From NCBI RefSeq assembly GCF_009914755.1, contig NC_060935.1: a stretch of 64,000 bases of DNA. The stretch is one strand, 5' to 3'. The position numbers and the translations under genes are program-made. A model generated the notes under the pieces. That model saw only the letters and a list, made by a program, of their open reading frames with translations, ran no database searches and was not told the DNA's origin. Of the stretch, positions 28,898 through 39,954 are shown in pieces (the stretch's first letter is position 1; every line of letters starts with the position of its first letter). The DNA comes from the human T2T-CHM13v2.0 reference genome, Homo sapiens.

Positions 28898-29914
28898 ATG
28901 GGGAAAAAACAGAGCAGAAAAACTGGAAACTCTAAAAAGCAGAGTGCCTCTCCTCCTCCAAAGGAACACAGATCCTCACCAGCAATGGAACAAAGCTGGT
29001 TGGAGAATTACTTTGACAAGTTGAGAGAAGAAGGCTTCAGACGATCAAAAATACTCCAAGCTACAGGAGGAAACTCAAACCAATAGCAAAGAAGTTAAAA
29101 ACTTTGAAAAAAATTAGACAAATGGATACCTAGAATAATCAATGCAGAGAAGTCCTTAAAGTAGCTGATGGAGCTGAAAGCCAAGGCTCAAGAACTACAT
29201 GAAGAATGCAGAAGCCTCAGGAGCCGATGTGATCAACAAGAAGAAAGTGTATCCCTGATGGAAGATGAAATGAATGAAATGAAGCAAAAAGTGAAGTTTA
29301 GAGAAAAAAGAATAAAAAGAAATGAACAAAGCCTCCAAGAAATATGGGACTATGTGAAAAGACCAAATCTATGTCTGATTGGTGTACCTGAAAGTGACGG
29401 GGAGAATGGAATCAAGTTGGAAAACACTCTGCAGGATATTATCCGGGAGAACTTCCCCAATCTAGAAAGGCAGGCCAACATTCAGATTCAGGAAATACAG
29501 AGAATGCCACAAAGATACTCCTCGAGAAGAGCAACTCCAAGACACATAATTGTCAGATTCACCAAAGTGGAAATGAAGGAAAAAATGTTAAGGGTGGCCA
29601 GAGAGAAAGGTCGGGTTACCCACAAAGGGAAGACCATCAAACTAACAGCGGATCTCTCAGCAGAAACACTACATGCCAGAAGAGAGTGGGGGCCAATATT
29701 CAACATTCTTAAAGAAAAGAATTTTCAACCCAGAATTTCATATCCAGCCAAACCAAGCTTCATAAGTGAAGGAGAAATAAAATCCTTTACAGACAAGCAA
29801 ATGCTGAGAGATTTTGTCACCACCAGGCCTGCCCTAAAAGAGCTCCTGAAGGAAGCACTAAACATGGAAAGGAGCAACTGGTCCCAACCAATGCAAAATC
29901 AGGCCAAATTGTAA
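28898..29914 (+). pseudogene. L1#2 ORF1p, disrupted
   Basis: MGKKQSRKTGNSKKQSASPPPKE... is frameshifted. The downstream 248-aa piece contains EIWDYVKRPNL, RREWGPIF and YPAK. Confidence 0.93.
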
Positions 29915-29977
29915 AGACCATCGAGGCTAGGAAGAAACTGCATCAACTAATGAGCAAAATAACCAGCTAACATCATA

Positions 29978-32900
29978 ATGACAGGGTCAAATTCACACAC
30001 AACAATATTAACTTTAAATGTAAATGGGCTAAATGCTCCAATTAAAAGACACAGACTGGCAAATTGGATAAAGAGTCAAGACCCATCAGTGTGATTTATT
30101 TGGGAAACCCATCTCACATGCAGAGACACATATAGGCTCAAAATAAAAGGATGGAGGAAGATCTACCAAGCAAATGGAAAACAAAAAAAAAGCAGGGCTT
30201 GCAATTCTAGTCTCTGATAAAACAGACTTTAAACCAACAAAGATCAAAAGAAACAAAAAATGCCATTACATAATGGTAAAGAGATCAATTCAAGAAAAAG
30301 AGCTAACTATCCTAAATATATATACACCAAATACAGGAGCACCCAGATCCATAAAGCAAGTCCTGAGTGACTTACAAACAGACTTCTACTCCCACACAAT
30401 AATAATGGATACTTTAACACCCCATTGTCAACATTAGACAAATCAACAACACAGAAAGTTAAAAGGATATCCAGAAATTGTACTCAGCTCTGCACCAATC
30501 AGACCTAATAGACATCTACAGAACTCTCCACCCCACATCAACAGAATATACTTTCTTTTCAGCACCACACCACACCTATCCCAAAATTGACCACATAGTT
30601 GGAAGTAAAGCTCTCCTCAGCGAATGTAAAACAACAGAATTTATAACACTCTGTCTCTCAGACCACAGTGCAATCAAACTAGGACTCAACATTAAGAAAC
30701 TCACTCAAAACCGCTCAACTACATGGAAACTGAACAATCTGCTCCTGAATGAGTACTGAGTACATAACGAAATGAAGGCAGAAATAAAGATGTTCTTTGA
30801 AACCAACGAGAACAAAGACACAACGTACCAGAATCTCTGGGACACATTCAAAGCAGTTTATAGAGGGAAATTTATAGCACTAAATGCCCACAAGAGAAAG
30901 CAGGAAAGATCCAAAATTACACCCTACCATCACAATTAAAAGAACTAGAAAAGCAAGAGCCAACACACTCAGAACCTAGTAGAAGGCAAGAAATAACTAA
31001 AATCGGAGCAGAATTGAAGGAAATAGAGACACAAAAAATCCTTCATAAAATTAATGAGTCCAGAAGCTGGTATTTTGAAAGGATCAGCAAAACTGATAGA
31101 CCACTAGTAAGACTAATAAAGAAGAAAAGAGAAAAGAATCAAATAAATGCAATAAAAAATGATAAAGGGGATATCACCACCGATACCACAGAAATACAAA
31201 CTACCATCAGAGAATACTACAAACATTTCTATGCAAATAAACTAGAAAATCTAGAAGAAATGGATAAATTCCTCGACACGTACACCCTCCCCAGACTAAA
31301 CCAGGAAGAAGTTGAATCTCTGAATAGGCCAATAACAGGCTCTAAAATTGTGTCAATAATCAATAGCTTACCAACCAAGAAGAGTCCAGGACCAGTTGGA
31401 TTCACAGCCGAATTTTACTGGAGGTAAAAGGAGGATCTGATACCATTCCTTCTGAAAGGATTCCAATCAATAGAAAAAGAGGGAATCCTCGCTAACTCAT
31501 TTTATGAGGCCAGCATCATCCTGATAACAAAGCCGGGCAGAGACACAACCAAAAAAGATAATTTTAGACCAATATCCTTGATGGACATTGATGCAAAAAT
31601 CCTCAGTAAAATATTGTCAAACCGAATCCAGCAGCACATCAGAAGGCTTATCCACCATGATCAAGTGGGCTTCATCCCTAGGGTGCAAGGCTGGTTCAAT
31701 ATACGCAAATCAATAAATGTAATCCATCACATAAGCAGAACCAAAGACAAAAACCACGTGATTATCTCAATATATGCAGAAAAGGCCTTTGACAAAATTC
31801 AACAACTCTTCATGCTAAAAACTCTCAATAAGTTAGGTGTTAATGGGACGTATCTCAAAATAATAAGAGCTATCTATGACAAACCCACAGCCAATATCAT
31901 ACTGAATGGGCAAAAACTGGAAGCATTCCCTTTGAAAACAGGGACAAGACAGGGATGCCCTCTCTCACCACTCCTATTCAACATAGTGTTGGAAGTTCTG
32001 GCCAGGGCAATTAGGCAGGAGAAGGAAATAAAGCGTATTCAATTAGGAAAAGAGGAAGTCAAATTGTCCCTGTTTGTAGAAGACATGAATTGTATATCTA
32101 GGAAACCCATTGTCTCAGCCCAAAATCTCCTTCAGCTGATAAGCAACTTCAGCAAAGTCTCAGGATACAAAATCAATGTAAAAAATCACAAGCATTCTTA
32201 TACAGCAATAACAGACAAACAGAGAGCCAAATCAGGAGTGAACTCCATTCACAATTGCTTCAAAGAGAATAAAATACCTAGGAATCCAACTTACAAGGGA
32301 TGTGAAGAACCTCTTCAAGGAGAACTACAAACAATTGCTCGATGAAATAAAAGGATACAAACAAATGGAAGAACATTCCTTGTTCATGGGTACGAAGAAT
32401 CAATATAGTGATAATGGCCATACTTCCCAAGGTAATTTATAGATTCAATGCCATCCTCATCAAGCTACCAATGACTTTCTTCACATAATTGGAAAAAACT
32501 ACTTTAAAGTTCATATGGAACCAAAAAAGAGCCTGCATCGCCATGTCAATCTTAAGCCAAAAGAACAAAGCTGGAGGCATCACGCTACCTGACTTCAAAC
32601 TATACTGCAAGGCTACAGTAACCAAAACAGAATGGTACTGGTACCAAAACAGAGATATAGATCAATGGAACAGAACAGAGCCCTCAGAAATAATGCCACA
32701 TATCTACAACTATCTGATCTTTGACAAACCTGAGAAAAACAATTAATGGGGAAACTATTCCCTATTTAATAAATGGTGCTGGGAAAACTGGCTAGCCATA
32801 TGTCGAAAGCTGAAACTAGATCCCTTCCTTACATCTTATACAAAAATTAATTGAAGATGGATTAAAGACTTAAACGTTTGACCTAAAACCATAAAAGCCC

Positions 32901-38300: not shown

Positions 38301-39156
38301 TCTGGTATGTTATGTCTTTTTTCTCGTTGGTTTCAAAGAACATCTTTATTTCTGCCTTCATTTCGTTATGTACCCAGTAGTCATTCAGGAGCATGTTGTT
38401 CAGTTTCCATGTAGTTGAGTGGTTTTGAGTGAGATTCTTAATCCTGAGTGCTAGTTTGATTGCACTGTGGTCTGAGAGATAGTTTGTTATAATTTCTCTT
38501 CTTTTACATTTGCTGAGGAGAGCTTTACTTCCCTGTATGTGGTCACTTTTGGAATAGGTGTGGTGTTGTGCTGAAAAAAATGTATATTCTGTTGATTTGG
38601 GGTGGAGAGTTCTGTAGATGTCTATTAGGTCTGCTTGGTGCAGAGCTGAGTTCAATTCCTGGGTATCCTTGTTGACTTTCTGTCTCGTTGATCTGTCTAA
38701 TGTTGACAGTGGGGTGTTAAAGTCTCCCATTATTATTGTGTGGGAGTCTAAGTCTCTTTGTAGGTCACTCAGGACTTGCTTTATGAATCTTGGTGCTCCT
38801 TTATTGGGTGCATATATATTTAGGATAGTTAGCTCTTCTTGTTGAATTGATCCCTTTACCATTATGTAATGGCCTTCTTTGTCTCTTTTGATCTTTGTTG
38901 GTTTAAAGTCTGTTTTATCAGAGACTAGGATTGCAACCCCTGCCTTTTTTTGTTTTCCATTGGCTTGGTAGATCTTCCTCCATCCTTTTATTTTGAGCCT
39001 ATGTGTGTCTCTGCATGTGAGATGGGTTTCCTGAATACAGCACACTGATGGGTCTTGACTCTTTATCCAATTTGCCAGTCTGTGTCTTTTAATTGGAGCA
39101 TTTAGTCCATTTACATTTAAAGTTAATATTGTTATGTGTGAATTTGATTCTGTCAT
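35334..39156 (-). pseudogene. L1#3 ORF2p, disrupted
   Basis: A 320-aa piece covers the endonuclease domain ([19 protein letters not shown]...CCIQETH...SDH) and a 324-aa piece covers RT with LFADD. Stops at 36644, 36353 and 36114. The normal terminal TGA is changed to TGC. Confidence 0.93.
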
Positions 39157-39219
39157 TATGATGTTAGCTGGTTATTTTCCTCGTTAGTTGATGCAGTTTC
39201 TTCCTAGTCTCGATGGTCT

Positions 39220-39954
39220 TTACATTTCGGCATGATTTTGCAGTGGCTGGTACCGGTTGTTCCTTTCCATGTTTAGTGCTTCCTTCAGGAGTTCTTGTAA
39301 GGCAGGCCTGGTGGTGACAAAATCTCTGAGCATTTGCTTGTCTTTAAAGTATTTTATTTCTCCTTCACTTATGAAGCTAAATTTGGCTGGATATGAAATT
39401 CTGGGTTGAAAATTCTTTTCTTTAAGAATGTTGAATATTGGCCCCCACTCTCTTCTGGCTTGTAGGGTTTCTGCCGAGAGATCCGCTGTTAGCCTGATGG
39501 GCTTCCCTTTGAGGGTAACCCGACCTTTCTCTCTGGCTGCCCTTAACATTTTTTCCTTCATTTCCACTTTGGTGAATCTGACAATTATGTGTCTTGGAGT
39601 TGCTCTTCTCGAGGAGTATCTTTGTGGCATTCTCTGTATTTCCTGAATCTGAACTTTGGCCTGCCTTGCTAGATTGGGGAAGTTCTCCTGGATAATATCC
39701 TGCAGAGTGTTTTCCAACTTGGTTCCATTCTCCCCATCACTTTCAGGTACACCAATCAGACGTAGATTTCATCTTTTCACATAGTCCCATATTTCTTGCA
39801 GGCTTTGCTCATTTCTTTTTATTCTTTTTTCTCTAGACTTCCCTTCTCACTTCATTTCATTCATTTCATCTTCTATCACTGATACTCTTTCTTCCAGTTG
39901 ATCGCATTGGCTCCTGAGGCTTCTGCATTCTTCAAGTAGTTCTCGAGCCTTGGT
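39220..39954 (-). pseudogene. L1#3 ORF1p C-terminal portion
   Basis: ENTLQDIIQENFPNLARQ...RREWGPIF...PLQNHAEM; separated from its N-terminus by the inversion. Confidence 0.9.

What the first reader, a model, noticed from the sequence alone, without database searches (positions are those of the whole stretch)
29569..39565. L1#2 and L1#3 (different subfamilies, opposite strands) share private nonsense mutations
Seen: both carry ACA GAA>TAA (32486-32488 and 36644-36646) and the double change AAA CTA>TGA (33017-33019 and 36114-36116). They also share aagCgtattc (32034/37098) and aaagtGgaaatg (29569/39565). At the three ORF2 sites L1#1 and L1#4 lack these changes; the fourth site is in ORF1, which neither of them has. 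Known: these are non-CpG changes, and L1 cis-preference makes inheriting stop codons from an active source unlikely; the two copies also differ at subfamily-diagnostic sites. Inference: short-patch, post-insertion non-allelic gene conversion between neighbours, spreading inactivating alleles. The satellite's homogenisation machinery may be acting on embedded L1s.
Basis: partly seen in the sequence, partly recalled or inferred. Interest (0 to 1): 0.8.

Follow-up and report, generated by a model that had tools for sequence, protein, structure and literature searches.

The report
Two neighbouring dead L1s share rare mutations
Two separately inserted, long-dead L1 retrotransposons lying tail to tail in old alpha satellite share four uncommon base changes, two of them stop codons, but each change also occurs in dozens of unlinked L1 copies, so copying between the neighbours is possible and not shown.

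Summary
All four shared sites exist as described, and L1#1 and L1#4 lack them. L1#2 (27877-34036, +) and L1#3 (35102-41089, -, 5' end inverted, with its own 14-nt target-site duplication) are independent insertions. They are 92.7% identical and fall in different L1PA clades.

The alleles are not private. Exact 28-mers occur at:
- TAA: 62 places, against 8615 for GAA.
- TGA: 77 places, against 12862 for CTA.
- GCG: 31 of 5317.
- ORF1 GTG: 75 places.

No other L1 carries both stops. Neither copy is L1PA2/PA3-young: the nearest genomic relatives are 90-94% (L1#2) and 94-97% (L1#3) identical.

Over 2416 columns the pair shares 4 derived events; 35 unlinked controls average 1.43, and 2 of the 35 reach 4. 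The shared sites sit in long identical runs (empirical p=0.01). Such run lengths are ordinary, though: 7% of control pairs reach 132 bp. Unlinked copies also reproduce three of the four patches exactly.

My odds are about 50% coincident recurrent or lineage variants and about 40% a few short gene-conversion tracts. The surrounding satellite is 70%-identical monomeric alpha satellite, so no satellite homogenisation is visible.

The parts
27877..34036 (+). L1#2: near full-length L1PA element (about 6.16 kb) with an A-rich tail; no clear target-site duplication. Roughly 11 in-frame stops and 5 frame switches in ORF2.
   Evidence: Self-blastn: body 29181-34044 matches L1#3, and 5' part 27876-29135 matches 39959-41092. 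Junction sequences. Stop and frame tally by my own frame-tracking script, so approximate.
35102..39953 (-). L1#3 body (3' 4.85 kb of the element, T-run on + at 35102 onward). Roughly 7 in-frame stops and 3 frame switches in ORF2.
   Evidence: (92.68% identity to L1#2 over 4876 columns).
39959..41089 (+). L1#3 5' segment, inverted relative to its own body (twin-priming-type structure). It is in direct orientation to the 5' part of L1#2 (87-90% identity).
   Evidence: 27876-28634 vs 39959-40715 at 87.2%; 28774-29135 vs 40727-41092 at 90.2%, both +/+.
35088..35101 (.). Left copy of the L1#3 target-site duplication, GAAACATTGTTTTC.
   Evidence: the 14-mer occurs 3 times in the window, two of them exactly at the two ends of L1#3. 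Removing L1#3 and one copy restores a continuous alpha-satellite monomer.
41090..41103 (.). Right copy of the L1#3 target-site duplication.
29481..29594 (.). Patch P1: 114-bp run identical in L1#2 and L1#3 (mirror 39540-39653). It holds the ORF1 GTG (synonymous Val) allele.
   Evidence: rank 2 of 317 runs; 4 unlinked L1s are 100% identical over all 114 nt and 13 more are 99%; the 28-mer occurs at 75 places.
32011..32076 (.). Patch P2: 66-bp identical run holding the GCG allele at 32034.
   Evidence: rank 7; 31 places of 5317; none of 63 unlinked loci is identical over the patch, 4 have one mismatch.
32458..32514 (.). Patch P3: 57-bp identical run holding the TAA stop (32486-32488; mirror 36644-36646).
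   Evidence: rank 13; 62 vs 8615 places; 13 of the 30 TAA-ascertained unlinked loci are identical over the whole patch.
32924..33055 (.). Patch P4: 132-bp identical run (the longest) holding the TGA stop (33017-33019; mirror 36114-36116) and 32988A.
   Evidence: rank 1; unlinked locus L048 (chromosome 3) is identical over the whole patch and has a 167-bp run with L1#2; 32988A is in 7 of 49 panel copies.
34053..34835 (+). Older L1 3'-end fragment (34053-34399 and 34797-34835) split by an unidentified insert of about 397 bp (34400-34796). It forms most of the spacer between the two arms.
   Evidence: 34053-34399 is 86-87% identical to the 3' ends of L1#1, L1#2 and L1#3; sequence read.

Best explanation
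L1#2 and L1#3 are two independent retrotransposition events of neighbouring stages of the L1PA lineage. They landed about 1 kb apart, tail to tail, in old monomeric alpha satellite, and both have decayed since (about 11 and 7 in-frame stops). The four shared alleles are low-frequency states that recur across the genome's L1s. Two of the shared states look like variants of the once-active lineage: the synonymous ORF1 GTG and 32988A. TAA, TGA and GCG are recurrent post-insertion changes, each present in about 0.6-0.7% of copies. On this reading their joint presence in both neighbours is a moderately unlikely coincidence, of the order of 1-5%. It came to notice because two of the changes are stop codons. 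No copying between the elements is needed. Shown: independent insertion, the recurrence of each allele, and the control distributions. Inferred: that the coincidence is chance.
For: Independent insertions: L1#3 has its own 14-nt target-site duplication and an inverted 5' segment. The two differ at 8 of 10 clade-diagnostic sites and are not sisters in the tree. Recurrence: TAA 62 places vs GAA 8615 (0.71%); TGA 77 vs CTA 12862 plus 135 CGA/CAA (0.59%); GCG 31 of 5317 (0.58%); ORF1 GTG 75 places. TGA carriers are scattered over the tree: 14 rows need 12 changes, against a shuffled mean of 12.7. The ORF1 GTG haplotype is 100% identical over 114 nt in 4 unlinked L1s, one of them among the closest relatives of L1#3, and a 99% copy is among those of L1#2. 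Unlinked L048 reproduces the whole 132-bp TGA patch, and 13 of 30 TAA loci reproduce the 57-bp patch. Controls: 2 of 35 unlinked copies share as many derived events with L1#2 as L1#3 does. 2 of 52 share as many alleles held by almost no other copy. One unlinked copy (L035) shares 2 such transversions with L1#2. Identical-run lengths are ordinary: a longest run of 132 or more occurs in 7.3% of 247 unlinked pairs of like identity, and the top-3 sum is reached in 16%. No rare indel is shared. The other long identical runs tested are common haplotypes (2066, 1765 and 2014 places).
Against: The count is above expectation: 4 events against a control mean of 1.43. For alleles rare in the panel, my estimate of the expected number is about 0.4 per 2416 columns (21 single-carrier alleles over 52 copies). 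By my own Poisson arithmetic that gives P(3 or more) of about 0.008. All three ORF2 events lie in longer-than-typical identical runs (empirical p=0.010 against 482 to 1478 shared events in unlinked pairs), and the ORF1 site lies in the second-longest run. No other L1 in the genome has both stops. Inverted repeats 1 kb apart are good substrates for intrachromosomal conversion. I devised the co-location test after seeing the data.
Confidence: 0.5

Rival explanations
1. Three or four separate short-tract (about 50-200 bp) non-allelic gene conversions occurred between the inverted neighbours after both had inserted. Each copied one patch, with its private or minor allele, from one copy into the other. 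L1#3 is the more likely donor. The stops spread passively and have no functional meaning, because both copies were already disabled.
For: Excess of shared derived events (4 vs 1.43; model P about 0.008 for the three rare ones). The shared sites fall in identical runs ranked 1, 2, 7 and 13 of 317, with empirical co-location p=0.010. The stretch 32924-33136 has one mismatch in 213 bp. The TAA+TGA combination is unique to this pair. The geometry fits. Conversion between neighbouring repeats within 10 kb is reported for Alus: passages in PMC6598467 and PMC8230782 citing Aleshin and Zhi 2010, a paper I did not read itself. 32988A and the ORF1 GTG occur among relatives of L1#3, which fits L1#3 as donor.
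Against: Every allele and three of the four whole patches also occur in unlinked copies, so no patch is diagnostic. The run-length (GENECONV-type) tests are not significant. Three of the four patches carry only one shared derived allele, so several independent events are needed. Present identity of 93% is low for homologous repair. No diagnostic site lies inside a patch, and 8 of 10 outside stay discordant. No indel is shared. L1#1, 560 bp from L1#2, shows no excess. 2 of 52 unlinked controls match the sharing level.
Confidence: 0.4
2. Assembly or polishing artefact: reads from one arm were used to correct the other.
For: None from the sequence. It is listed because the arms are inverted repeats in a pericentromeric region.
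Against: The arms differ at 345 of 4864 columns, so long reads place unambiguously. The shared sites are single bases inside otherwise common sequence, and many discordant sites lie between them.
Confidence: 0.03
3. The arms are an inverted duplication of one L1, or both copies descend from one defective progenitor that already carried the stops.
For: The arms are co-linear with a nearly constant coordinate sum.
Against: L1#3 has its own target-site duplication and a 5' inversion that L1#2 lacks. The pair shares only 2 derived alleles besides the stops in 2416 columns, while L1#3 shares 6-8 with its true clade-mates. 8 of 10 clade-diagnostic sites differ.
Confidence: 0.02

Closest known systems
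Non-allelic gene conversion between neighbouring transposable elements (described for Alus within about 10 kb; Aleshin and Zhi 2010 as cited in PMC6598467 and PMC8230782, passages read)
   Same: Two diverged copies of one repeat family a few kb apart share non-diagnostic changes, in short patches.
   Different: Here the elements are L1s at 93% identity. The evidence is four sites in one pair, not a genome-wide excess, and every shared allele also recurs in unlinked copies.
Parallel (homoplasious) mutation and lineage polymorphism among L1PA copies
   Same: Each allele is found in 29-75 unlinked L1s of several clades. Unlinked pairs in the panel share up to 4-5 alleles held by almost no other copy.
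   Different: This pair sits in the upper tail of that distribution, and its shared sites lie in long identical runs.
Twin-priming L1 insertion (5'-inverted L1 flanked by one target-site duplication; named from my own knowledge, and the term appears in the listing)
   Same: L1#3: 3' body with A-tail, 5' segment inverted and joined at its 5' end, about 45 nt of L1 missing at the junction, and a 14-nt duplication flanking the whole. L1#4 shows the same layout.
   Different: Nothing unusual. It explains why both arms seem to end at the same L1 position.
Arm-to-arm gene conversion in palindromes (human Y chromosome; recalled, not checked here)
   Same: Inverted arms with a short spacer.
   Different: Those arms are above 99.9% identical and evolve in concert. 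These arms are 93% identical, with no overall homogenisation.

Membership tests
Interlocus gene conversion tract | More shared derived alleles between the two copies than between either copy and unlinked copies of the same kind | tested here: inconclusive
   4 events against a control mean of 1.43; 2 of 35 controls reach 4. Alleles held by almost no other copy: 2 of 52 controls match. My Poisson estimate for the three rare alleles is about 0.008.
Interlocus gene conversion tract | Identical fragments longer than expected for the pair's divergence (GENECONV criterion) | tested here: not met
   A longest run of 132 bp is reached by 7.3% of 247 unlinked pairs within 1% of the same identity; the sum of the top three runs is reached by 16%.
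Interlocus gene conversion tract | Shared alleles are private to the pair | tested here: not met
   60, 75, 29 and 73 unlinked carriers. Only the TAA+TGA combination is unique.
Interlocus gene conversion tract | Shared derived sites cluster inside locally identical stretches | tested here: met
   Runs ranked 1, 2, 7 and 13 of 317. Empirical p=0.010 for the three ORF2 events. The test was chosen after seeing the data.
Interlocus gene conversion tract | Mosaic of subfamily-diagnostic sites (donor alleles inside the tract only) | tested here: inconclusive
   No clade-diagnostic site falls inside a patch. Outside the patches 8 of 10 differ. L1#2 has the L1#3-clade state at 33194 and 33753, but 5 of 13 of its own clade do too.
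Interlocus gene conversion tract | Pre-conversion state seen in an orthologue or another haplotype | not testable with these tools
   Only this one human assembly could be searched.
Twin-priming L1 insertion (L1#3) | One target-site duplication flanking a 3' body with A-tail and an inverted 5' segment, with a small loss at the junction | tested here: met
   GAAACATTGTTTTC at 35088-35101 and 41090-41103; body 35102-39953 (-); 5' segment 39959-41089 (+); L1#2 positions 29136-29180 have no counterpart.
Inverted segmental duplication of one L1 | Same insertion structure and same lineage alleles in both arms, with flanks duplicated | tested here: not met
Satellite-array homogenisation acting on the inserts | Surrounding array is itself homogenised, and other embedded L1s also share alleles | tested here: not met
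   Alpha satellite has 172/342-bp periods at 70% matches and 71-84% self-identity. L1#1 and L1#4 show no excess sharing with L1#2 or L1#3 (observed-to-expected ratios 1.3-2.1).

The most novel reading that the evidence does not exclude
A few short-tract gene conversions did pass between these two inverted L1s inside a non-homogenising satellite. They would be one visible case of a wider habit: carriers of each rare L1 allele lie within 1 Mb of each other more often than a uniform scatter predicts. Pairs within 1 Mb against uniform expectation are ORF1 GTG 30 vs 1.8, TGA 16 vs 1.9, GCG 5 vs 0.3, TAA 4 vs 1.2. The nine regional pairs I could inspect matched only over their L1 part at 81-96% identity, so they are not recent segmental duplicates. 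If local copying between dispersed L1s causes this, subfamily ages and 'private' mutations of L1s in dense regions would be partly unreliable.
Probability: 0.3. Interest if true: 0.45.

Novelty: already known. Interest (0 to 1): 0.25.

Why it matters
It matters little for function, because both L1s carry many other disabling changes. Its use is as a caution. A stop codon shared by two neighbouring L1s is not in itself evidence of copying, since single rare alleles recur in 0.6-0.7% of the genome's copies. If the conversion reading were proved, it would add an L1 example at 93% identity in pericentromeric DNA to a process documented mostly for Alus. The regional clustering of rare L1 alleles seen in passing would be worth a proper genome-wide test.

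Tried and rejected
1. I wanted full-length panels of the 20 and 36 nearest genomic copies of L1#2 and L1#3. All panel statistics therefore cover only 31000-34000, using 97 unlinked loci of about 3 kb. Of these, 30 were picked for TAA, 30 for TGA, 30 for CGA/CAA and 7 as best hits. The three ascertained positions were left out of the panel counts and judged from genome-wide counts instead.
2. The region 29181-31000 has no panel. I only counted exact genome-wide occurrences of its four longest shared runs. One holds the ORF1 allele and three are common haplotypes. Runs of 53, 45 and 40 bp, and all shorter ones, were not tested. The 5' UTR parts (27876-29135 vs 39959-41092) were not analysed.
3. 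The pattern used a run boundary that ignored an insertion in L1#3. It matched L1#2 alone and says nothing about sharing. I corrected the boundary.
4. TGA as the CpG decay product of a CGA lineage variant is only partly supported. CGA/CAA exist at 135 places (53 CGA and 47 CAA among the first 100, counted by eye). Among the 57 tree rows, TGA (14) outnumbers CAA (5) and CGA (7), and TGA carriers do not form a clade. Why a two-base change recurs in 75 unlinked copies is unexplained.
5. GTG at site 3 as decay of GCG is rejected. GTG is in 5 of 64 loci, while the mirror product GCA is in none.
6. Slower CpG loss in this region is rejected. L1#2 and L1#3 hold 16 and 17 CpGs in 31510-34000, within the panel range of 8-26.
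A first MAFFT run timed out and I repeated it with faster settings.
8. Subfamily names (L1PA3, 4, 5 and so on) could not be assigned because no repeat library or consensus was available.
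Full report
**What is there.** The window is monomeric alpha satellite. Tandem Repeats Finder gives periods of 172 and 342 bp at only 70% matches, and self-blastn gives 71-84% identity in both orientations. Several L1 elements are embedded in it.

Self-comparison and the junction sequences give the following layout:
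- **L1#1:** 23388-27315, on the + strand.
- **L1#2:** 27877-34036 (+). It is near full length, with an A-rich tail and no clear target-site duplication.
- **Older L1 fragment:** a 3' fragment at 34053-34399 plus 34797-34835, split by an unidentified insert of about 397 bp.
- **Spacer:** about 250 bp of alpha satellite.
- **L1#3:** body 35102-39953 on the - strand. Its first 1.1 kb (39959-41089) lies on the + strand, inverted relative to its own body.
- **L1#3 duplication:** the 14-mer GAAACATTGTTTTC flanks the whole of L1#3 at 35088-35101 and 41090-41103. Removing L1#3 and one copy restores a continuous satellite monomer.

L1#3 is therefore one insertion of the 5'-inverted (twin-priming) type, as is L1#4. 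This explains why the two arms appear to end at the same L1 position. The arms are not an inverted duplication.

**The observation.** The arms are 92.68% identical over 4876 alignment columns, 22 of which are gaps.

**Age and kinship.**
- The best genomic relatives of L1#2 are 90-94% identical and those of L1#3 94-97% (each call scored about 40 of more than 25,000 candidates). Neither is as young as L1PA2/PA3.
- In a 57-row tree of 31510-34000, with the two stop sites masked, the two are not sisters. L1#3 sits in a 12-row set with 98% support, and L1#2 lies outside it.
- They differ at 8 of 10 sites that separate those sets.
- Both are long dead. My frame-tracking script gives about 11 in-frame stops and 5 frame switches in ORF2 for L1#2, and 7 and 3 for L1#3 (approximate).

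**Are the alleles private?** No. Exact 28-mer counts in the whole assembly:

| Allele | Places | Comparison | Share |
|---|---|---|---|
| TAA | 62 | GAA 8615 | 0.71% |
| TGA | 77 | CTA 12862; CGA or CAA 135 | 0.59% |
| GCG | 31 | of 5317 with G or C at that base | 0.58% |
| ORF1 GTG | 75 | denominator not measured | not known |

Further points on recurrence:
- TGA carriers are scattered over the tree: 14 rows need 12 changes, and shuffled labels need 12.7 on average.
- Whole patches recur as well. The 114-bp ORF1 run is 100% identical in 4 unlinked L1s and 99% in 13 more, among 40 scored of 158 candidates.
- One of the 100% copies is among the closest relatives of L1#3, and one 99% copy is among those of L1#2.
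- Thirteen of the 30 TAA-ascertained loci are identical over the 57-bp TAA run. Locus L048 on chromosome 3 is identical over the whole 132-bp TGA run. None of 63 loci matches the 66-bp GCG run exactly.
- No other L1 has both stops (lists, compared by eye).

- In 2416 columns with a clear majority base, L1#2 has 80 derived alleles and L1#3 has 52. This leaves out the three ascertained positions.
- They share two of these: 32034C, and 32988A, which is in 7 of 49 panel copies. With TAA and TGA that makes four events.
- Thirty-five controls with 2000 or more shared columns share a mean of 1.43 events with L1#2. The distribution is 0 in 10 controls, 1 in 9, 2 in 9, 3 in 5 and 4 in 2.
- For alleles carried by no other copy, 2 of 52 controls share two or more with L1#2. 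One unlinked copy, L011, shares three.
- Such transversions are shared twice or more in 4 of 1431 pairs, one of them L1#2 with unlinked L035.
- From 21 single-carrier alleles over 52 copies I estimate about 0.4 rare shared alleles expected per 2416 columns. By my own arithmetic that gives a Poisson P of about 0.06 for two and 0.008 for three.

**Tract evidence.** The four sites lie in identical runs of 132, 114, 66 and 57 bp. These rank 1, 2, 7 and 13 of 317 runs, whose mean length is 14 bp.
- Compared against 482 to 1478 shared events in unlinked pairs, the co-location of the three ORF2 events has an empirical p of 0.010. I chose this test after seeing the data.
- The run lengths themselves are ordinary. 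Among 247 unlinked pairs of like identity, 7.3% have a longest run of 132 bp or more, and 16% reach the sum of the top three runs.
- For the 258-bp stretch at 98% identity, L1#3 is the best non-self hit, but 9 unlinked L1s are also 98% identical.
- For 32400-32600, L1#3 is not among the 40 best hits.
- No rare indel is shared.
- Three other long runs are common haplotypes, at 2066, 1765 and 2014 places.

**Weighing.** Coincidence needs a 1-5% event. It is supported by the recurrence of every allele and of three of the four patches, and by controls that reach the same level of sharing. Conversion needs three or four separate short tracts between 93%-identical arms. It is supported by the count, the co-location and the geometry, and it is a known process for neighbouring repeats (passages of PMC6598467 and PMC8230782). 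I put coincidence at about 0.5, conversion at about 0.4, and artefact or common origin at about 0.05 together.

The suggestion that satellite homogenisation acts on the inserts is not supported. The array is not homogenised, and L1#1 and L1#4 show no excess sharing.

**Seen in passing.** Carriers of each rare allele lie within 1 Mb of one another more often than a uniform scatter predicts. The nine regional pairs I could inspect matched only over their L1 part at 81-96% identity. L1 density was not controlled for.

Noticed in passing
genome-wide lists (coordinates analysed): Carriers of each rare L1 allele are regionally clustered. Pairs within 1 Mb against the uniform expectation: ORF1 GTG 30 vs 1.8, TGA 16 vs 1.9, GCG 5 vs 0.3, TAA 4 vs 1.2. 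One or two pairs per allele lie within 20 kb outside the window (for example C14:33702741(+)/33710047(-) for TAA). L1 density and segmental duplications were not controlled. The nine regional pairs I inspected aligned only over the L1 part at 81-96% identity.
   Followed up: partly
G000:C11:54888575 and C11:55457970 (outside the window): A third L1 about 105 kb from the pair carries the GCG allele, and one about 680 kb away carries the ORF1 GTG allele.
   Followed up: no
window 33017-33019 and 75 unlinked places: The two-base change CTA>TGA recurs in 75 unlinked L1s of many clades and ages (72-94% identity to L1#2), about as often as single-base changes at the same codon. A CGA intermediate explains this only in part.
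   Followed up: partly
window 60749-63605: L1#4 is also a 5'-inverted L1: 60762-62613 on the - strand joined to 62613-63605 on the + strand, with about 8 nt of L1 missing at the junction. The window therefore holds two twin-priming-type L1s.
   Followed up: partly
window 34400-34796: An insert of about 397 bp splits the older L1 3' fragment. It is masked as repeat in the hub's table and I did not identify it.
   Followed up: no
window 27860-27880 and 34030-34055: L1#2 has no recognisable target-site duplication. Its A-rich tail abuts the truncated 5' end of the older L1 fragment.
   Followed up: partly
tree: The three window L1s have longer end branches (0.040, 0.023, 0.056) than most of their clade-mates (about 0.012-0.045). 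This may mean faster change in this pericentromeric region. It may also only reflect a panel biased towards well-preserved copies.
   Followed up: no
window 1-23000, 41100-60700: The alpha satellite changes orientation several times (self-matches on both strands), and its monomers are only 70-84% alike. It is an old monomeric or dimeric layer, not a higher-order array.
   Followed up: partly
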